From positions 56,794,001-56,858,000 of the forward strand of contig NW_024704742.1 of NCBI RefSeq assembly GCF_018977255.1: a stretch of 64,000 bases of DNA. The letters run 5' to 3'. The DNA comes from Callorhinchus milii. Its lineage: Eukaryota. Position numbers and translations under genes: made by a program. This document shows positions 25,520 through 62,877 of the stretch, in pieces. The notes below the pieces were generated by a model. That model was not told the origin of the DNA and ran no database searches. It saw only the letters and a program-made list of their open reading frames with translations. Position 1 is the stretch's first letter. Each line of letters begins with the position of its first letter.

Positions 25520-27490
25520 CTCAATGAGAATCTCCTCTTCAGCTGGATGGTTTCTCAGATATTTTGGTGGAACGTGACTTATTAAATCATAACCTGATTC
25601 TTTTACTTCTTGAGTTTCAATCCAACTTAACCCCAGATGGCTTATGGGACAAATGGAAACATACATTTTCTACTTTGGTAGTGGAGGACATCTCCTCAGA
25701 GGTTAGAGTTATAACATTTATTTCAAGAATGGAGGGAACTTTACTGCGCATTTGACTTAGAATTTTTCAAACTTGATGATTGTTCAAAAGAATAGAAAAT
25801 ATCCAGTTCCTCAGGTTCACTAATTGAATAGCTCATATTTTGAAAGAATTGTAACATCTTAGTGTTGTAAAAGATAAGAAAGAGGCATTGCGCGATGTTG
25901 GCATTTTACTTTATTTTAATTTTCTTTTGATTCTGCTCTTTATTCAACTCCCATCAAATATAGCAGATAAAAATATCTAATGGGTAGAAAGAAGTGGGGA
26001 TTAATAAGAGTGTGATGAATAGGGTTTCTTGGGAAGATTATACAGAGTAAATGAATATCCTATTTATACCTACAAATCCTTTAGAGATTGAAAACTATTA
26101 GCAAGAATGTTTAGTGAATAGATAAGTACCCTATCTTATACCTACAATTCCAGAAAGATGACATTCAATTTGAATAAAAATGCATTCAAAATGAAGGTCA
26201 TCTCCCAGATTTGTAACTGTCTATGATTCAGCTTATGTATGCATCAGGGATATTAAATGATCCGTCCAATATCTGGGTTGACCATTCATTGCAAAGAAAG
26301 TAGCGGATAATTCAGGTTAACTGCTTAAACTAAAACTGTTACAAATCTGCTTTACAGTCACCTGAGATTCTGAATAATTTCATCATTTCTATGTGATCAT
26401 TCACTCTTATTTAGTTTAATATTCATTAAAGCACATTTACTACTTTCGTGTAAATGGAGCTAAGAAAAATAGATTTTTAGCAGTAAACTTCAGTGTTCAG
26501 CTTTGATTCAGGAGCTTGTTAAAATACGAGGTTATTTGCGTGTGTTGGATCTCATCTTGTATATATGATTGTTGAGGCCATGTTTAGAACAGTGTGCACT
26601 GTTTGAGGATTTCAAAAGATCATTGGAGAAGGCTTGAAAAGGTGAAAATAAGCACAAAACAACATTCACATTGCATACTTTTAATGAAATTAATATATTT
26701 TTTGCATATGGAGTTACATACAAGTGCAGATTATCAAGGGTCAATTTTTGCCTAACTGATAGTCATTCATGTAATATGCAACCTTTCTCTCCATCCCAAA
26801 GAGGTATATCCAGCACTATATTGCTTTTTTTAAATTTAAAATATGTTTGCTTTGTGGCACACAATTGGTATTGGGAATAGCAAGTCACATCATTGTTTTC
26901 ACCAGATGAGGCTCCATTCATTTCCTCCTTGGAAAAAGTCATTTCTTCATTGTCTTGCATAGGAAATTTTCTTGTGAAATGATCTTGGTGTTAGTTTCCT
27001 CTTCGACCAGGCCTTCCATCATCTTCCTACTCCCACCCGTCATGCATGTCCTCCACCACACTGACCCCAACCCCCAGCTTGTGTCCACATCTTTGACTAC
27101 CCAGCGCTTTGGGACATACTCCTAACATGAAAGGCACTGTACAAATGTAATTTGTTGTTGTTGTTTAACAGCAGAATGCATTTTGAAGAGGAGCATCTGC
27201 TGAGTTTAAAATGATAGTTATTATTAGGGGGATAACTTGCATCAAATAATTGCGCCTGTCAGTGACCCATTTAGAATATCACAACATTCTGAGAATTGAC
27301 TTGTTTATTGTGAAATTGAGTCTGATTTGTCAATAAGTAGAGGTAGGGATAAATACCTGAAAAACTTCAACTATCCTATCAGCTGGCTGAACCAATATTT
27401 ATTAGTAACATCTATGTTACTGAAAATGCATTTCATTGCCATCATTTTTTTTGAAAAAATGTCTGAATTTTTCCCGTTTCCTTTCTTAAG

Positions 27491-28279
27491 TTGGCTTCTT
27501 GTCGAAGGCTCAATACAACATCCCCTGCTGTCAGGCATGACTCCTCACCCTGTCAAAATGAGTCTGCAGTTCTTGCGATCACTAGTGAATGGATATCACT
27601 GACAGTTGGGTCCTCCCCTCCAACCGTCCAGGCCCCAACACTCCCTGCATTCCCTAATAATAGTCTGTTCTCTGATTTGGATGAATGTACATCTTGGGCA
27701 GTGACATCCTTTGGATTTGATTTTATTCCCTCAACAAATTCTGCTTCCTGTAATAAGTATGGTGATTTCATTCCAGTCAGTTCTATAGAGAACCTCACCA
27801 GCTCACCTGAAACTCCAAATTGCCCACCATGTCTTCCTCTATCTCATGCTATCTCACCCTCACCATTGTCTCCAGTTTACTGTGTGGCTCACGGACACAA
27901 TACTGAGTTAATCCAATTAGCAAACAAATTTGAGGGTACCCCTGAGAAAAATGCAGCCATTCCCTCTACTGATGAGAAAGCTTTGGAAGCCACAGACATT
28001 TCATTAGTGATTATAGAACCATCAGAAACCAGTTCTCCTGACAAACACCTGGAGCTCAGAAATGAACCAGAAGAGGAGCGCTGTGAAGAATTACTCTCAG
28101 CCATTCAAGAAAGCCAGTCAAAGCTTGATCAAACCGAAGACACACTGGATGCAACTGAGGAGCCTCTGAAACTCTTTATAAAAGAAGAGCCTAGTGTGAT
28201 CTATAAGACACCAAAGGCAATTCTATCTAGACCTATTATGTCTGATGAAGATAAGACCGAAATCCTTATTGATACTGAG
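27491..28279 (+). CDS. SORBS2: SORBS2 alternative exon between SH3-2 and SH3-3 (789 nt, phase 0-0; contains AITSEWISLTVG)
   Basis: Pyrimidine tract then ttaag|TTG...GAG|gtacaa; open for 263 codons; motif resembles the SORBS1 insertion. Confidence 0.82.
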
Positions 28280-28739
28280 GTACAATTACTGTAAAACTGC
28301 TCCTAAAAACTAACTTTTGGGGGATTTTGTGGGGGTTTTTTACAAGAACGTAATGAACAATTAAACAAAGCTGGCTTTCAAAATTGAGTTAATGCTCCAA
28401 AGTGGCATGAAAATGTTGACTGTTTGAGGAGTATGAGGATAATCTATTGCCTGAAGGCTTACAGAAGTGATGAAATTGTGTGCTGATCTTCCTAGCAATG
28501 ACAGCAATCTAATACCTGCTATGGAGGAGTGCATGTTTTTAATACTAATATCACTTCCTTAATTATCATGGAATGCAGTTTCTGAAGTGTAATGAAGAAA
28601 AACAACTTAGCTGCCTGAATATGATATGCAATAAAAAACAACTTGTTTTTGTTCAATAATACATAAAGATTGCACTGCATTTGCAATACTATATCTTGCC
28701 ATATCTAGTCCTATTCATTTTTGTTCAACTGTTTTATAG

Positions 28740-33729: not shown

Positions 33730-33836
33730 GTACCAAGCTATGTATAATTACAATCCTCGAAATGAAGACGAGTTAGAGCTCAAAGAAGGCGATATTGTTG
33801 ATGTCATGGAGAAGTGTGATGATGGATGGTTTGTTG
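33730..33836 (+). CDS. SORBS2: SORBS2 exon, SH3-3: [35 protein letters not shown](G) (107 nt, phase 2-1)
   Basis: ttacag|G...GTTG|gtatgt; SH3 signature. Confidence 0.96.
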
Positions 33837-36625
33837 GTATGTATATTTATGGCATACTTGTATAATTTATATGCCAGTCTGCAATGAGCAATTGATCAAT
33901 TTAAACATCTGAATCTAATGGTCTGAGTTTTTATCAGATAGATGGGGAAGTAAACATTAGTACAGGAGTTAATGGGTGGAAGCAATGAATAAATTCCCCT
34001 GCGTGTGCTTGACCTCAATCCAGAAAGTAAATGCCTCAGACAACACAGGCAGTGTTTTTCGTGTGTGGGGAAAGGTGGGGGGGGGGGTGCAGACCCAACA
34101 TCACAAGCCATAAACACTGTTCATAGGGCTTTCCATTCTTTCACAATTCTTCCGAGCCTGATTTTCACTGTTCTATGACTTCATTTCATAAAGCTGCCAT
34201 CCCCTGAAGCATTAATATTTCACACATGCAAATTCACACTGAACGGCCAGTAGAAATACAGGAACCAGAATTTATATTAAAGCTGCACATGAGATTTTAC
34301 CACAGGTTATGTGGTAATAAAGAGGAACAAAGAAACAAAGCCATCATGAAAATCAACTCCAGGCATTCTTCCAAACTAAGGATATCCATAATCCATTTGC
34401 TTGCATGGTTATCTAAACAGCTATGCTGAATTTGTGTCCTCTTGCTGAAACCCAAGTTTAAGGTAGGTTGTCCTATAGGCTCAATAGGTTTTGGACCAAA
34501 GCTGTCCAAACATGACTTTATCCATTATAATCTAAAGGGGAAAGTACCATTGTATTTTTTTTAAAAAATATTAGGAACAGGAAAAGGTCATTCAAAAAGT
34601 CGAGTCTGTTCCACCATTTTATTTGTGCGTTTTCTCTACATCTTTTCCCACATGTCGATGTGAAATACTTCAGAAGGATCCCTTAATCTGAATAGCATGA
34701 AGTATTGGCCAGAGGATTGAAATCCTTAACTTTCATCCAGACCCTCATAGCAAATGTTTCCTTCAATATTTACGGTTGGGTTCAGTACCTGGGACTTCTG
34801 TATTTCAAAGCTAAAGCTGTTGCTCTGGACATAGTTAAACTCACACAGCAATCATTTGACCTCCTCACATCCCAATTAACCATTGCCAATGGGTATAGTT
34901 CATTCGTTGATAAAATAAGAGTCTGTTCCCCCCACGAGGGATACATTTACAAATGGAACAAATCTGCTGAATTCACCCTAGACCCTATCTCCTTTGAGAT
35001 CCATGAAACCTATAGCATTTATTGAAGTAGGATTTATACAATTAGAGCTGAAACCAAGTTTTCCAAGGGAAAATATTGCAGCAATTACTGTTTTTCATAA
35101 ATCATTGCCAACCGGGTCACCAGGAGAATACATCTTCATGAAATGTGTACAGAGATTCGACGCCATTTCTTAAATGTCTCTTATTTATTTAATGCACCCT
35201 TCTCTCCTTGTTGAACTTGTTTCTTTGACTTGATCTTTTTAATTTGCAAAAGAGTACCCTTGGTGGCTGTTATCAAAGGTCAATGAGATAGGGACAGATC
35301 AATCAATTAGTCAGTCAATCAATGATCAACACTGCCTAGTTAGACAAAATGATGAGGTAGTCTTGGGACCACATTCCAATTCCCACCTAGTCATCTCATA
35401 AATTAACTTGGCAGCCCCTTCAATTTACCACATAAAACTGACTTAGAAAATTGCTGGTTGCACATTGTATATTAATCTGCAGTAAACTCATACAGAAATG
35501 CAGACTTGGTATTTATACCCAAGGAAACCTGGTAACTAAACAACAATTAGTAGAATGATTGCTTCAAACTGTCTGGGAATAGCATTGGGATCAATAAGAT
35601 ACAACGATACCCATTATCCTGCCATATACTGAAAACTATCTAAACCAGTATTCAGAGATAGATAATATTTGTCAGGCTGCCACATTAGAGTTTCACCATA
35701 CATTAGCCCCAGGATGAAGATCAGTTTGTCCCATCAAATCCTTCCACCTGTAGCCTATTTCCTTGCAAGGACCTCCCCTTTCCTCTTCCTGTCATAACCA
35801 GCAGATTGTCTTACTACAGTGTGTGGAGGATGTCAACAAGGAAACAATTTGGTGTTCAATTTAACCTTAAGCAAACCGCACAGGATTTGAGGGTGTTCAA
35901 CAATATTGTGGGTGTCAAACAAGGAGAATGTGCCTTTAGACATTATCTTCATCAGTTCAGTTCTCTTGCAAACCTCACTCTTAACATGTGTGGCGGATAC
36001 ATTTGAGTTGAAAAATGAAACAAACAATCTGGGTAGGTAATCTTCTTTATTGCTCCCAGTCTGTGGATTTTGTTTTTTTCCAATTATTTCGCCGAACATC
36101 AAGCTGCTTTCCTAGGAATAGCCCATCATCACTAAGGGCTGGATGGCAAAGGACAAACATGGATGACGAGAGCAAAAAGCCTCCCTAACTTTCACAAGAT
36201 TTGTTAATCAATAACTTGTGATGAAACAAAAATCAAGTCCAATGACCAAAGATTAAAAACCAAGTTGTCCTGTTACGCCAACGAAGAAAGGCTTAACTTG
36301 GCTGGTGGAAAGATTCTGAAAATCATCAAGATTGGACCTGATATGCCACCGTCCATCCTGGAGTCCCAGCTCTCTGGTAGGTTTTTATTACAGTCTCTCC
36401 TTCCATGCATTCTTCCAGTAGAATAGTACTGTGCTTAACTAACGTTTGCAGAAGCTATAAACATTTGCGTCTTTAATCTGCATGTGAATATTCCTGTATA
36501 GAATGGTCCACAGCAGCAGTTAATTGCTGCATGAACTTCTACTATATTTGCATAAGTGCTTTATAAGTCTCCACTTCCACTGTACATGTGCAAATAATGT
36601 TTGTATTTTTTTTTTGTCTCCTCAG

Positions 36626-37788
36626 ACCATCTTTGTTCTGGCACCAATTCATCTGTTAAGAAAACCATTCCAGAATCTGCTATAGGGTTACCCTGGGGCC
36701 AAAGCATGACTGGCAATGAATATTCTTCCTCTATCCTCACACAACCCAATCCAGACAGAGGGAGGAGTCCAGAATGTGCTGCCGGGCAGCAGGATGACCC
36801 AGCATCTGGCAATAGGTCTGCTTCGAAAAATCCAAACAGTGCAAGAGTTTCTGAATATGCAGACAATGGGAAACATATGTCAGGAAAAGCAGATCTCAGC
36901 CACATTGCACCTCTCCCACCCTCCGTTACGGAGGAGGGTATGTATTTGATGAAACAAGCCATGGACAGAGTCCATGCCAGTGTGCAATCTGGTAACAACC
37001 AGATGCACGCTAACATGGTCAATCTGCATAATATTATGCAGTGCAGCGGGGTAGAGCTGTCTAAGCAGATGAGCTCTATACATAATCTTCTTGCTGCGCT
37101 GGTGTCTAACCAGCCACCCTCTGGGTTGATCCAGAATGTGGCTGCGAAGAGCTCCAAGGAGACATCTGAAGACTTTTCCACTAAGTGTGTAGATTCAGCT
37201 TCCACGTCACCTGTGCTTCAGGTGATCCCACCTCCAGAGAATCAACCTATAAACCCAGAATGTATTTCACCTCAGGTTAAGATGGCTCACCCTCCAGAGA
37301 ATGGTTCTATAGAATCTGAATCCATTTCACCCCTGCTTAAAATGACTGCACCTCCAGAGAATTGTCCCTCAGAACCAGAACCCATTTCACCTCAGATGAA
37401 GGTGATTCAACCTCCAAACAACTGTCCTGTAGAGGAAGAATTAACTGCACCTATATTTGAGGCGTCCCCAACTCTTGTGAACAATTGTGCAGAACAAATA
37501 TCCACTTCACATATAGATGAGATGACACCACCCCTACAGATCTATGTTGTAGAAAAAGCGTCTACTTTTTCTGCGGTTGAAGTGAACCTACCTTTAGTAA
37601 ACTGTCCTCTTGGGAAAACACCCACTTCACCTGCAGCTGAGGTGACCCCATGTCTGAAGAACATTCCTGTAGAAAAAGCATCCAATTCATCTATTGGGAT
37701 GGCCTTGCTTCCAGACAATTGTCTTGTACAACAAGAATCCAGTTTAATTAAAGTAACATCATCTCTAGAGAGCTATGCTGTAGAATGA
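36626..37788 (+). CDS. Unassigned long open exon (~387 codons) in the last SORBS2 intron: putative alternative last exon or nested-gene exon
   Basis: Strong acceptor (T-run...ctcctcag|AC), phase 1, open to TGA at 37786. Contains a helical-looking segment followed by 20-aa repeats. No homologue recognised. Confidence 0.55.
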
Positions 37789-37810
37789 CCATCCAACTCA
37801 CCTAAGATAA
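37201..37810 (+). repeat. Diverged 60-bp coding tandem repeat (~10 units; consensus-like tccatttcacct...cctccagagaattgtcctgtagaa)
   Basis: Units stack exactly at a 60-nt period from 37201 to 37680, then shorten. Confidence 0.88.
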
Positions 37811-39889
37811 AGGTATTCCTGCAACAAGGGAATCAAATGATGCTTCAGCAGATTAGTTCTCCCAATACCCAGAATTCAGCCTTTCTTGAATCTAAAAAAG
37901 TCTAAATGGGCAGTTATGTGTTAATGTTATCCTCAAACCATATATACTACGCAGAAGTATTAAGCTATCACTGTTTTGAGTAGCACTAATCTGTTTTACA
38001 GTATTTTTGCTCAGAAATACAGTGCAATGATGGGCATTTCACTAAGTTGCATTGAAGTATCATGCATTTACCTTTTCTGTTAAAAATACTGTTTAAGGGA
38101 TCACTAGGTGTGTATGTGTATTGATTTTCTACAGCTTAATAAGATTCTACCTGTAATACTTTTCTACTCTTGAAGTAAAAGATGCTCTCATGTTTGCCTC
38201 CATTGTGTTCTTTTTCGCCCATAAAAGTCTTTCCTTGTAGATGTACTCTTCATGGTCCGGCCAGCAGATTGGCTCACTCTCCTGAGTGAAAGGGTAACTT
38301 TCTGGACTGTTGAATCCAACCAGGTGATTTTTTTAGTCTCAATGGGGAACTAGGTGACTTTACATTGTTCATATCAAGGGAGTCCTACATGCTGTTGGTT
38401 GTGAGAGAAATGTTCTTTTCGTAAACGGAACACATTTAGGAAGTGTGCATTCAGGATAATTTAGCATTAGCACTGGAATGTGAAGCAATGTGAGTTTATA
38501 GGACTGAAAGGACTGGAAAGAAACTGGTTTGTCAGTCTTCCATACTAATGATGATGCGCTTATATTGTAGTTTGGCAGGGTTGGCTGTTTTATTGACATC
38601 ATTGCACATGATAATCATGATTGATCAATGTTATGTTGAGGCCCGGTCTAAGTGTGACAACACACCTAGCTGAGTGCCATGTTACAAGTTTCTAATTAGC
38701 CACCTGGCTCATTGATGCACCTCTCCTTAATCATTGATTTAAATATTGCTTTATGTTGATCTGATTACCACTTTTCTTCCATTTTCTCTCTCAGTGTTGA
38801 CTTATTGGGTAATGGCACCCAGTTAACCTCTGGCAGATCTCCAATCAGTCAGGCTCCGCCATTGTTAAGTGCTCTGAGACGCTACCCTACGTGGATGGCG
38901 CTATATAAAGTGCAAGTTGTTGTTGTGATGTTTCTAATCTGTATTTCTGGGATGGAGTGTTGGTGGCAATTCATCAGGTGCTGCCTTGCTGAGAGGCTGA
39001 TTCAATACAGTTTAGATGTTAAAACTCTGACCCAATTGCCTTTGGTGCCTTCATTCATATATCACTGATCAAGTCATGATTTTTATTTTACTACCATGTT
39101 AATTCTACACAAGCATAAATAACCACACACCTCTTGACTTCAAAATTAAGACTGAATTGAACAATTTGAGAAATTCTGCATGTTCTAAATTCTCATACAG
39201 GAAATACTGACCGAAGTGGAATTTACCGCATCTCTTCGTAACCTTCATACCAACCCCCCAGCAATCCAAGTCTAATTTAAACTGTTTATGATCCTCTAAA
39301 TTTACCTCTCCTTATTTGATTCCTTTTTCCATGGGATTTAGCTTCATGAGTGCTGTTTATCCCATACCTCATCCAAGTGTCCCTTATTCCAATAGAACTT
39401 TTACAACGGGAGACAAGATGTAGATGATATTGCAGCCAAACCCACCTAATCACATACACGTACCTTCCAGGCTTCCGGATAATAAGAAGTTGGAATCATG
39501 GCTAATTTTCCCCCAGAGAACTCTCAGGCCAATTATAGCACCCCAACTGCTAGCTCAGCTCAGACCAGAATTCAAATCTGCAACCATGCAGTTTGCTTCC
39601 ATGGTCACCTACAAAACACACAATCAATACACCTTATATTCTGTGAAGTGCTTTGAGACATCCGGCTGACATGAAAAGCCCTGTACCAAATGTAAGGATT
39701 ATTAGAATTATTTTTACTCTACTGTCTCGCTACATGCCTTTATTAGTTGTGCCATCGGGGGAGTTTGCTGTCCATCTGATATATTTTATCATCAGTGCTC
39801 AATAACAATTAAAGTAACACACTGAGGAAAAGAACTGATCGAGATCAAGAAATTAATGAAATATAATTAAGTTCTCTTTCTAATTGCAG

Positions 39890-39951
39890 GAACTTCTCGG
39901 CGATCGAAGTTATTTGGTACCTTTCCAGGAAACTACGTGAAGCGACTATAA
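39890..39951 (+). CDS. SORBS2: SORBS2 last coding exon (G)TSRRSKLFGTFPGNYVKRL*
   Basis: ttgcag|GA...CTA TAA; canonical SORBS2 C-terminus. Confidence 0.96.
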
Positions 39952-42130
39952 AATTTTATACAAATTTGTATCTGCAGTGCATTGGTTGAGCACAATATCT
40001 ACAACAGTTATTAAATGAAATTTCAGTCTGCAGATACTCGAACATAGCCTCTGTGACAGTTGTGTGATTGACTACAGCTAAGAAGCATCGCATCATTTTA
40101 GCACCATCTTCTGCCAAGAAATAGGAATAGCTTTAAAGCATCGATCATGCTGTCTGAAGACTGATCTGTCTTTCCTTCTTGTCTTGAGAGAAATTATTTT
40201 ATAATTATTATTATAGCAAATCTCATTTGCTCACTTTTTGTCCATGCATGCAGTAGTGATGCCTATTTATTCTCATTGGTACAGAAGCTCACAATGGTCT
40301 GTCACTAACATTTATTATTAATGATTTTGTCAAATAGAGGAAAATATATATACGTATATATATATATATAAAAACACACACAATATGTTCAGTGTGTAGT
40401 CTTCAATAAATCATACAGCTATGATAATTGCCCAGAATAGGTGCCCCTGTTCATTCACTTTTTTTTTGTGCTGAGGAATATATGGTACAATTAAATAATA
40501 ATTTACATTTCCTAGAGATTGTTTTGAAAATGTTGATTTAGTAATCTCACCCGGAGACAAACTCTCAAAGGATCATTGATTCTAGTCATGCAGTACTCTT
40601 AATGGTCATATTTCTGAAGTCCTTAGGCACTTTTGAGTTAGCAAGCCTAGGTTGTTGTATTAACATCAGTGACCATTAAAACTCAGCAGTTCTGAAGAAC
40701 TGAGACATGTAATTGTTTTACTTAATGAGAGTTTAAAAGTATATTCAGCCCAGCAACTGCAGAGGTGTGGGCAAGTTTTGTCACTGTATGGTGCATCCAC
40801 ACTGAAGTGCTATTGATGTGTATCTTTTTTAAAATGGTTTTGGAATCAGAAGCATCATTCAACGTTGAATGCCACTTGCCCCAGTGAAATGGAAATGCCT
40901 TCGCTTTCCTGCTTAATTATCTATTCAAAGCTCCTGAAAAGAATCTCTTGTACAATTTGTTTATAAGTTTGAATAGCAGAATAACTTCCTTCTAATATAT
41001 ATGATTTTCTGGAGAAAGGTTTTAGTAAAATTTACTCAAGTTGACGCCATATTACGTCCATGATTTTTTTAAATACAAAATTGAGTAAGATATACCATGT
41101 AATAAAAAGATCACCAAGTATTACTGCCATGTTTATTTTTCAACACACACAGACGAGGAATGGTTGGCGCTGCAGCACCTTAGTTTTTAAGAAAAAGTGT
41201 GACTTTTCTTTCGTAAATGCTTGAATTTACCACAGTGTATTCAGTCTAGCATTTTGTATATATGTCTGCTGTACAGTTATTTAGTCATCAATTCACTACT
41301 TTTCACATGTTTTCATAGGCCTGTCATCTCCCCTACTCCCCCTTTTTACTAACGGCCTCTTGTGCGCACGTTGCAAGAACATTTAGATGGTGCAAATGTA
41401 TATGATAGTATTTTATTGCAGAATTTTGCAATTTATACTTCAACAAAATAGTGTTACCAGCAAAAAAAAACTAATTACATATGTCTTTATACTGTAATTG
41501 TTAACAGTAGGAAATGAGGAAAAATGTCTGGACAGGTTCAATGATACCCTTTTACAATACCTTTGTTACACCAAAATTTGAGGTCGTAAAAGCTACGTAA
41601 TTCTGAAGCTTCGAATTTTTGGACTTAGTCAGCTGCATGCAGCACTGGTGTGAATTAAAATTCTTTACTGTCATTTTATGATGAAAATTACAATATTTGT
41701 TGCCTGTAAGATGAAAACTCTTTATATTCTCTGTAATTGATTTTAAAGATTTCTTTCACAACTGACATCAGTTAATTGACTTTGATGCAGCAAGATTCTT
41801 ACAGAGAAAAACTTTTTGTGTTTTTGTGAATTCCAACCCCTAATAAATTTTGCCTGAATTAAATGCACCCTGTTTTGTTTGGTTTAAAGCGCATCAAGAT
41901 GTTCCACAGTAGTACAGTGTTTCTTCGTTCCGTCATTGACAGCAAGAATAATTGAGGTTCCTTCAATTGTCATGTACATCACATGTCTCAAGTTGCTTAT
42001 TTACCATATTATATGAGGCCTGGGACTGCTTAAAGTGAATAGTTAAATGGTCTGTAAAAATAATTCTCGATTCCTCATTGTTACCTTCAGATTGTTAACC
42101 TGCACTGAATAAATGTCACCTAAAAAATTA
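39952..42130 (+). other. SORBS2: SORBS2 3'UTR with AATAAA at 40405, 41101, 41842 and 42108
   Basis: AT-rich stretch with no recognisable TE after the stop; SINE/LINE fragments resume after ~42130. Confidence 0.65.
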
Positions 42131-58290: not shown

Positions 58291-58316
58291 TGCGAAGGGT
58301 TTAAAGGAGCCTCAGG

Positions 58317-58529
58317 CAGCAGCAGCACCACCACCACCAGCAGCAGCAGCAGCACCACCAGCAGCAGCAGCACCACCAGCAGCAGCAGCAGCAGCACCAC
58401 CAGCAGCAGCAGCACCACCAGCAGCAGCAGCACCACCAGCAGCAGCACCAGCAGCAGCAGCAGCAGCACCACCAGCAGCAGCAGCACCACCAGCAGCAGC
58501 AGCACCACCAGCAGCAGCACCACCAGCAG
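58317..58529 (+). repeat. Compound (CAG)n/(CAC)n trinucleotide repeat, 71 triplets
   Basis: Read directly; CAG runs of about 3-6 interrupted by 1-4 CAC. Confidence 0.97.
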
Positions 58530-58620
58530 CTGCTGTCTGGGTGAGGTTTCTCTAATACCAACTTCAACTTGGACTTCACAACAGCATCGCTGGTGTCTGT
58601 GACAAACAAACTCCGAAAAG

Positions 58621-58713
58621 ATGCCGCAAAACGTGGTGCTGACAGGGTCTGCCCCGTGGGGCTTCAGACTGACTGGGGGGACAGATTTTAACCAACCTTT
58701 GACCATCTCAAGG
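58621..58713 (+). CDS. PDLIM3: PDLIM3 (ALP) first coding exon [31 protein letters not shown] (start of PDZ domain)
   Basis: ATG...AGG|gtgagt, 93 nt; PWGFRL PDZ motif of the ALP/Enigma family; known synteny with SORBS2. Exon 2 not seen in the window. Confidence 0.93.
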
Positions 58714-62232: not shown

Positions 62233-62311
62233 ATTCTGGACATTTTCTTGCAGTTGCCATTGTGAATTTTGGATTTGCCATCTCAGGTCTCATGGCCTGG
62301 AGTCTTAACAT

Positions 62312-62877
62312 GTCAGAGTGCAGGTCCCACAGGTCAGAATCAGGTCCCACAGGTCAGGAGTGCAGGTCCCACAGCTCAGACTGCAGGTCCCACATGTCAG
62401 AGTACAGGTCCCACAGGTCAGACTACAGGTCCCACAGGTCAGGAGTGCAGGTCCCACAGGTCAGACTGCAGGTCCCACAGATCAGACTGCAGGTCCCACA
62501 GGTCAGACTGTAGGTCCCACAGATCAGGAGTGCAGGTCCCACAGGTCAGACTGCAGGTCCCACAGGTCAGACTGCAGGTCCCACAGGTCAGACTGCAGGT
62601 CCCACAGGTCAGGAGTGCAGGTCCCACAGGTCAGGAGTGCAGATCCCACAGATCAGACTACAGGTCCCACAGATCAGGAGTGCAGGTCCCACAGGTCAGA
62701 CTGCAGGTCCCACAGGTCAGACTGCAGGTCCCACAGGTCAGACTGCAGGTCTCACAGGTCAGGAGTGCAGGTCCCACAGGTCAGAGTGCAGGTCCCACAG
62801 GTCAGACTGCAGGTCCCACCGGTCAGACTACAGGTCCCACAGGTCAGGCTACAGGTCCCACAGATCAGAGTGCAGGT
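62312..62877 (+). repeat. 21/22-bp minisatellite (gtcagactgcaggtcccacag / gtcaggagtgcaggtcccacag), ~26 copies, in PDLIM3 intron 1
   Basis: Read directly; explains the overlapping repetitive ORFs at 62262-63000. Confidence 0.96.

What the first reader, a model, noticed from the sequence alone, without database searches (positions are those of the whole stretch)
36626..37788. Unexplained ~387-codon exon in the last SORBS2 intron, in phase to replace the end of SH3-3
Seen: a 1.16 kb stop-free frame behind a strong acceptor, inside the intron that splits SH3-3. The upstream exon 33730-33836 ends in phase 1 (GTT G|gt), so splicing to 36626 reads ...DDGWFV-D-HLCSGTNSS... in frame. The product has a Ser/Pro-rich segment, an amphipathic helix-like segment (MYLMKQAMDRVHASVQ...IHNLLAALVS) and ~10 Pro/Glu-rich 20-aa repeats. 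It resembles none of the LINE or SINE families here. Inference: an alternative last exon that destroys SH3-3 (loses GTFPGNYV) and adds a novel tail, or an exon of a nested gene. A phase match alone has a 1-in-3 chance, so the ORF length and acceptor carry most of the weight.
Basis: partly seen in the sequence, partly recalled or inferred. Interest (0 to 1): 0.8.

Follow-up and report, generated by a model that had tools for sequence, protein, structure and literature searches.

The report
Shark-lineage alternative tail exon of SORBS2
An intact protein-coding exon inside the last intron of the cytoskeletal adaptor gene SORBS2 has relatives in sharks and rays, where it likely swaps the adaptor's last SH3 binding domain for an uncharacterised helical tail, although in this fish the RNA assemblies show it spliced only from a nearby intronic exon.

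Summary
The exon is real and old. 36626-37788 is an open frame behind a GT-AG acceptor, in phase with the SORBS2 SH3-3 exon. Its 63-residue core is predicted as one amphipathic helix. All 15 named hits of a profile search (16 hits) are shark or ray proteins; no Pfam family matches. Automatic RefSeq models in 4 of 10 species with the orthologue join it exactly as proposed (DDGWFV-D-tail, SH3-3 cut); the other 6 list it as a stand-alone gene. In this organism the junction 33836>36626 was seen in 0 of 3 RNA-like runs; one run splices 36376>36626 instead, from an intronic exon (contigs drop rare forms). A paralogue sits at another locus and is joined behind a SHANK PDZ exon in one gene model. The 20-aa repeats occur only in this lineage. 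Verdict: a cartilaginous-fish terminal exon with likely dual use (SORBS2 tail isoform, nested transcript). A decayed Harbinger Myb origin was suspected by eye but found no support in any search. New variant; interest 0.5.

The parts
33730..33836 (+). SORBS2 exon coding the first part of SH3-3; phase-1 donor
   Evidence: 94-97% identical to shark and ray SORBS2; spliced to 39890 in 3 of 3 RNA-like runs, not in X1
35030..36376 (+). Intronic upstream exon seen spliced to 36626 (5' end not defined; 35030 is only where the contig starts); 20 upstream ATGs, then an in-frame ATG at 36343 giving a 398-aa frame
   Evidence: contig 12 of run X5, 2677 nt; ATG list
36064..36376 (+). Stretch in frame with the exon, with two TAA stops; looks by eye like a decayed Myb/SANT-like domain (recalled pattern, unsupported)
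   Evidence: translation; no hit in Pfam, PDB or protein search; model pLDDT 48
36377..36625 (+). 249-nt GT-AG intron ending in the polypyrimidine acceptor
   Evidence: joint in X5; unspliced cover in X6; ends checked
36626..37788 (+). Coding exon of the finding: phase-1 start (Asp), 386 further codons, TGA
   Evidence: homologues; five variants in the runs, 2 silent, 3 missense, no stop or indel
36919..37107 (+). Conserved core, aa 98-160: predicted single amphipathic helix, hydrophobic period 3.6-3.67
   Evidence: 46-54% identical to clade A, 30-33% to clade B
36938..36945 (+). Internal phase-1 donor-like site at the start of the helix; two Narcine models leave the exon at the matching residue
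   Evidence: use not seen in this organism
37201..37785 (+). Nine full and one partial 60-nt/20-aa Pro/Ser/Glu-rich repeats, absent from all homologues found
39890..39951 (+). Coding part of the canonical SORBS2 last exon (last 20 aa of SH3-3, with GTFPGNYV)

Best explanation
This is an old coding exon of cartilaginous fishes inside the last SORBS2 intron, and it likely serves as an alternative terminal exon that replaces the last 20 residues of the third SH3 domain with a spacer plus a predicted 63-residue amphipathic helix, while also being spliced from an intronic exon in this organism. Steps. (1) Shown: open frame, phase match, used acceptor, homologues in sharks and rays. (2) Shown only as automatic annotation in four other species: splicing from the SH3-3 donor to this acceptor. 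(3) Inferred: the same splice occurs here at low level or in tissues not sampled. (4) Inferred from SH3 structure (own knowledge): without the GxFPxNY strand SH3-3 cannot fold or bind proline-rich ligands, so the isoform would keep SoHo, SH3-1 and SH3-2 and lose SH3-3 partners (c-Abl binds SH3 A and C of ArgBP2 per PMC3903627, passages read). (5) Inferred: the helix is a protein-binding or bundling rod that gives the adaptor a new contact; the flanks are fast-evolving spacers, extended here by tandem repeats. (6) Inferred: no AATAAA lies between the stop and 40405 and RNA cover runs on to 39750, so the transcript probably ends at the normal SORBS2 3' end and would have no junction after its stop. 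Origin, inferred: a module that was copied between loci before sharks and rays split, since a paralogue lies on another chromosome.
For: Homologues: 4 hits among 1.84 billion representatives and 16 with a profile, all named ones chondrichthyan. Fusion models: 5 of 7 Pristis isoforms fetched, 11 of 15 Narcine isoforms fetched (of 18 in the cluster; 2 of the 11 leave the exon early), 1 of 1 S. canicula, 2 of 2 S. torazame fetched; canonical ends in 2 Pristis and 2 Narcine models. The frame is open from the phase-1 acceptor position in the four fused species, in the Mustelus and two Mobula stand-alone models and here, and no start codon is shared by all (alignment); this fits translation entering from an upstream phase-1 exon such as SORBS2's. 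Core identity 76-99% among sharks and rays. Neutral simulation: stop-free in 42 of 2000 runs at 10% DNA divergence, 7 of 2000 at 15%, 0 of 2000 at 25% (substitutions only).
Against: In this organism 33836>36626 is listed in 0 of 3 RNA-like runs while 33836>39890 is in 3 of 3 and 36376>36626 in 1 of 3. Six of 10 species with the orthologue returned only stand-alone models. The fusion models are automatic and may share evidence across species. The core here is only 46-54% identical to its orthologues whereas the large SORBS2 exon is about 74%, and the first 60 aa do not align better than shuffles (453 of 1000). Mismatches among the repeat units are not enriched at third codon positions (363/345/296). 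The paralogue has its own conserved upstream coding exon and no RefSeq host fusion among the hits. No protein-level evidence exists.
Confidence: 0.55

Rival explanations
1. The functional unit is a stand-alone nested gene on the same strand (here ATG 36343, 398 aa, or a later ATG such as 36706, 360 aa); SORBS2 fusions are a by-product of sharing strand and phase.
For: The only listed junction into 36626 is from 36376 (X5); an X6 contig starting at 36621 with 13 unplaced letters and one extra mismatch fits the same donor better than the SORBS2 donor (inference). Stand-alone models in 6 of 10 species and for the paralogue.
Against: 20 upstream ATGs lie in the contig before 36343; the contig's start is not a shown transcript start; low RNA cover spans most of the last intron, so the contig may be a partly processed SORBS2 pre-mRNA. 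No shared start codon across species; the upstream exons of other species' models do not match this intron (best E 0.56).
Confidence: 0.27
2. Origin (compatible with either use): the exon is the second exon of a Harbinger-type Myb-like gene; the Myb exon upstream (36064-36376) has decayed and the helical C-terminal part was kept.
For: Two unlinked copies with the same phase-1 exon start, one apparently in a SHANK intron; the upstream frame is in phase and, by eye, has a Lys-x-x-x-Trp and basic third-helix spacing recalled from Myb/SANT-like domains; Harbinger Myb genes were repeatedly domesticated in jawed vertebrates (PMC9392472, section 6 read).
Against: No Myb or DDE transposase hit in six-frame Pfam scans of the flanks; no PDB hit; 0 of 26 candidates scored; no Myb domain in any homologue scanned or precomputed; no terminal inverted repeats stand out; Harbinger was not detected in elephant shark (PMC9179366, passages read).
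Confidence: 0.3
3. The exon is functional in sharks and rays but is drifting or untranslated in this lineage.
For: Long branch (0.47 substitutions per site in the core), lost N-terminal similarity, repeat expansion without a codon-position signal, 3 of 5 variants missense.
Against: 386 codons stay open with ten diverged repeat units and no indel out of frame; the helix keeps the residues invariant in both clades.
Confidence: 0.12
4. Chance frame or young multi-copy transposon.
For: None beyond low complexity of the flanks.
Against: Shuffles, homologues at E 4e-16, flat depth in X1.
Confidence: 0.02

Closest known systems
RefSeq SORBS2(-like) isoforms of elasmobranchs (XP_051875597.1, XP_038661566.1, XP_072372019.1, XP_069795435.1) and uncharacterised LOC proteins (XP_078418845.1, XP_067885522.1, XP_078071413.1)
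   Same: Same junction residue, same helix core, same loss of GTFPGNYV in the fused models.
   Different: Unnamed automatic predictions; tails have a longer N-terminal spacer (about 235 aa against about 100) and no 20-aa repeats; no orthologue from this organism is in the collection (best identity 51%).
SoHo-family adaptor SORBS2/ArgBP2 splice variants
   Same: Host gene; splice forms lacking various domains exist in databases (PMC5621683, passages read); oligomer state changes partner choice (PMC3903627, passages read).
   Different: No paper in my searches describes a form that cuts SH3-3 in the middle and adds a 350-390 aa tail.
Clade B paralogue (XP_020379655.2, XP_069765395.1, XP_072418141.1, GCB69792.1)
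   Same: Same helix core with shared invariant residues, phase-1 Asp at the exon start.
   Different: Other locus, slower evolution (91-97% core identity), own upstream coding exon; joined behind a SHANK PDZ exon in one S. torazame gene model only.
Harbinger Myb-like-derived genes (NAIF1, MSANTD1-4)
   Same: Small multi-exon vertebrate genes of mobile origin; low-complexity region plus C-terminal helix is a recalled trait, not tested.
   Different: They are defined by an intact Myb-like trihelix domain (PMC9392472); none was detected here or in the homologues.

Membership tests
Alternative terminal exon of SORBS2 | Lies in a SORBS2 intron, same strand, in phase with the upstream donor | tested here: met
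Alternative terminal exon of SORBS2 | Spliced from the SH3-3 donor in this organism | tested here: inconclusive
   0 of 3 RNA-like runs, but contigs drop rare forms
Alternative terminal exon of SORBS2 | Same junction in orthologues | tested here: met
   automatic models in 4 of 10 species; underlying reads not seen
Alternative terminal exon of SORBS2 | Fusion protein is made | not testable with these tools
   needs proteomics or ribosome profiling
Nested same-strand gene | Own spliced upstream exon | tested here: met
   36376>36626 in run X5
Nested same-strand gene | Own transcription start and translated start codon | not testable with these tools
   contigs show no starts; ATG 36343 follows 20 upstream ATGs
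Harbinger Myb-like-derived gene | Myb/SANT-like trihelix domain | tested here: inconclusive
   no hit; a decayed copy with stops may fall under HMMER's filters; model too poor to judge
Harbinger Myb-like-derived gene | Neighbouring DDE transposase remnant or terminal inverted repeats | tested here: not met
   (such traces would not be expected to last this long)
Canonical left-handed heptad coiled coil | Hydrophobic period near 3.5 | tested here: not met
   peak at 3.6-3.67 in 4 of 4 sequences, which fits a straight or hendecad-like stripe
Dispersed LINE/SINE repeat | Many near-identical copies | tested here: not met
   no second copy in the window; flat depth in X1

The most novel reading that the evidence does not exclude
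A mobile-element-derived helical module was captured twice in the ancestor of cartilaginous fishes, in introns of two scaffold genes (SORBS2 and a SHANK), each time as a phase-1 terminal exon that truncates the scaffold and appends the same interaction helix: a lineage-specific, splice-switched way of rewiring adhesion and synaptic scaffolds, kept since before sharks and rays split.
Probability: 0.12. Interest if true: 0.8.

Novelty: new variant of a known kind. Interest (0 to 1): 0.5.

Why it matters
It defines an unnamed protein family so far seen only in cartilaginous fishes (two paralogues, no Pfam model) and a candidate SORBS2 isoform that trades a ligand-binding SH3 domain for a new helix. 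SORBS2 is a cardiac and synaptic cytoskeletal adaptor, so a conserved shark-lineage switch at its C-terminus is a clean case of how an intronic coding module becomes part of a host protein, or stays a nested gene, or both. It also warns that several RefSeq shark and ray SORBS2 models lack an intact third SH3 domain.

Tried and rejected
No whole genome is held. Pfam on the exon product: only a sub-threshold hit. Word-based homologue search at near lengths: none of 2227 candidates scored; only the exhaustive search found relatives. ESM Atlas: no usable hit for the whole protein, best 0.81 for aa 85-185, which is chance level. PDB sequence searches: nothing for the exon or the core profile. Foldseek: no match; VIA-align: generic long helices only, best Z 6.6, none at 8. 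Three-copy complex prediction of the core: no verdict, score 0.12, alignment not used; not counted either way. Metagenome scan: 80 pattern matches, none confirmed. No run was on record as RNA; X5, X6 and X8 are guesses but show SORBS2 junctions absent from X1; 4 of 15 holders were laid. Myb and transposase tests on the flanks were all blank; the Atlas could not be asked about the stop-containing stretch. The cassette test used a wrong frame and was redone. Earlier findings: nothing. Literature searches without a description of this exon: (listings only, except PMC9179366, PMC3903627, PMC5621683 passages and PMC9392472 passages plus section 6; no supplements read, and those of the two Harbinger papers could bear on the origin question).

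Full report
Observation. The window holds a SORBS2 gene (shark and ray SORBS2 proteins map exon by exon). Its last intron (33837-39889) splits the third SH3 domain. Inside it, 36598-37788 is stop-free for 396 codons, far beyond shuffles (maximum 207 of 2000). The acceptor at 36625 is a T-run plus CTCCTCAG and the SH3-3 exon joins it in frame. The product has three parts: a Ser/Gly/Pro-rich spacer (aa 1-97), a core predicted as one 63-residue helix (aa 98-160) with a hydrophobic period of 3.6-3.67, and nine and a half 20-aa repeats (aa 192-386).

Relatives. Pfam, PDB, the Atlas and a word-based search gave nothing. An exhaustive phmmer search gave 4 hits, all on the core (E 4e-16 to 5e-9), and a core profile gave 16 (only the 8000 best candidates of 196-2000 aa were scored). 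Fifteen are named shark or ray proteins, one is an unnamed assembly protein; no bony vertebrate appeared. They form two clades (tree on the core columns of 16 rows). Clade A (76-99% among themselves, 46-54% to the window) includes tails of SORBS2 models. Clade B (91-97% among themselves, 30-33% to the window) lies elsewhere: Narcine has A on a 494 Mb and B on a 95 Mb sequence. The window is about equally far from sharks and rays in both the core and the large SORBS2 exon (about 74%), so the organism is probably outside elasmobranchs, most simply a holocephalan (inference).

Use as a SORBS2 exon. In Pristis pectinata, Narcine bancroftii, Scyliorhinus canicula and S. torazame, RefSeq models read DDGWFV, then Asp, then a 347-363 aa tail with the core, and lack GTFPGNYV. 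Counts among the isoforms fetched: Pristis 5 of 7 tail, 2 canonical; Narcine 11 of 15 enter the tail (2 leave it early at a donor that also exists here at 36938), 2 canonical, 2 other ends; S. canicula 1 of 1; S. torazame 2 of 2. Cetorhinus, Heterodontus, Mustelus, Stegostoma and two Mobula species returned only stand-alone models; that these lie in the SORBS2 intron is inferred from sequence, not from DNA seen. In Mustelus and Mobula the frame is still open from the acceptor position, and no start codon is common to all clade A members, which fits entry from an upstream phase-1 exon.

RNA in this organism. Four runs were laid as assembled contigs. Three RNA-like runs all show 33836>39890; none lists 33836>36626. 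Run X5 has a 2677-nt contig covering 35030-36376 spliced (GT-AG, 249 nt) to 36626-37955. An X6 contig that starts at 36621 fits the same donor (inference), and X6 also holds the unspliced intron. The DNA-like run X1 is contiguous. Low cover extends over most of the last intron but hardly over the previous one, so the X5 contig may be a nested mRNA or a partly processed SORBS2 RNA. Contigs drop rare variants, so a minor SORBS2 junction is not excluded. The spliced form opens a 398-aa frame at ATG 36343, behind 20 other ATGs. Five variants fall in the exon: 2 silent, 3 missense, none disruptive.

Selection. A frame of this length rarely survives neutral change (42, 7 and 0 of 2000 stop-free at 10, 15 and 25% divergence, indels ignored). 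Constraint is confined to the core: the first 60 aa do not align above chance with orthologues, and the repeats, unique to this lineage, show no third-position excess. dN/dS could not be computed because no orthologous DNA was reachable.

Mechanism. Most likely (0.55) the conserved role is a terminal-exon switch: the SH3-3 donor picks 36626 instead of 39890, dropping the last strand of SH3-3 and adding spacer plus helix, with the RNA probably running on to the usual 3' end (first AATAAA at 40405). Loss of SH3-3 binding follows from SH3 structure (own knowledge); c-Abl uses SH3 A and C of ArgBP2 (PMC3903627, passages read). What the helix binds is unknown; self-association or partner binding is inferred from its amphipathic stripe only. 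The main rival (0.27) is a nested gene with incidental fusion.

Origin. Two unlinked paralogues with the same phase-1 start suggest an old duplication or transposition. One S. torazame gene model places clade B behind the end of a SHANK PDZ domain (E 4e-12 to SHANK3), so B probably lies in a SHANK intron; no RefSeq SHANK fusion was among the hits. The stretch 36064-36376 looks by eye like a decayed Myb/SANT-like domain as in Harbinger-derived genes (recalled pattern; PMC9392472 section 6 for the family), but every search was blank, so this stays a lead (0.3).

Novelty. The sequences sit in databases as unnamed isoforms and uncharacterised loci; eight paper searches found no description. It is a new variant of known phenomena (alternative terminal exon, nested gene) built on an undescribed lineage-restricted domain. 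Interest 0.5.

Noticed in passing
window 36626-36937: Using the internal phase-1 donor at 36938 with the canonical acceptor 39890 would give an in-frame 104-codon cassette inserted in the middle of SH3-3, keeping GTFPGNYV. Not seen in the contigs; two Narcine models leave the exon at this residue but go to other exons.
   Followed up: partly
P0011 (GCB69792.1, Scyliorhinus torazame): The paralogous exon is joined behind a SHANK PDZ exon in this gene model; other species give it a conserved upstream exon with a basic TRKRK patch.
   Followed up: partly
window 36973-37029: Three histidines of the core (aa 116, 127, 134) are kept in the window and both clades, bar one Mobula change; a metal or pH-sensitive site on the helix flank is a possibility, untested.
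   Followed up: no
window 27467-28294: A 275-codon frame between SH3-2 and SH3-3 is a large SORBS2 alternative exon: 45% identical over 271 aa to an S. torazame isoform.
   Followed up: partly
window 34250-39750: Low RNA cover across most of the last SORBS2 intron in three runs, with almost none in the previous intron: retained last intron or a long nested transcript.
   Followed up: partly
window 58316-58680: About 72 GCA/CAG-type triplets lie just upstream of a + strand exon reading [17 protein letters not shown]..., which looks like the PDZ start of PDLIM3, the SORBS2 neighbour (name recalled, translation).
   Followed up: no
window 62308-62877: A 21-nt tandem array of about 27 copies, 89% alike, open in all three + frames.
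   Followed up: no
window 38848-38925 and 39590-39720: Two short high-copy repeat fragments in the last intron, with many copies in the window and depth in the thousands in X1.
   Followed up: no
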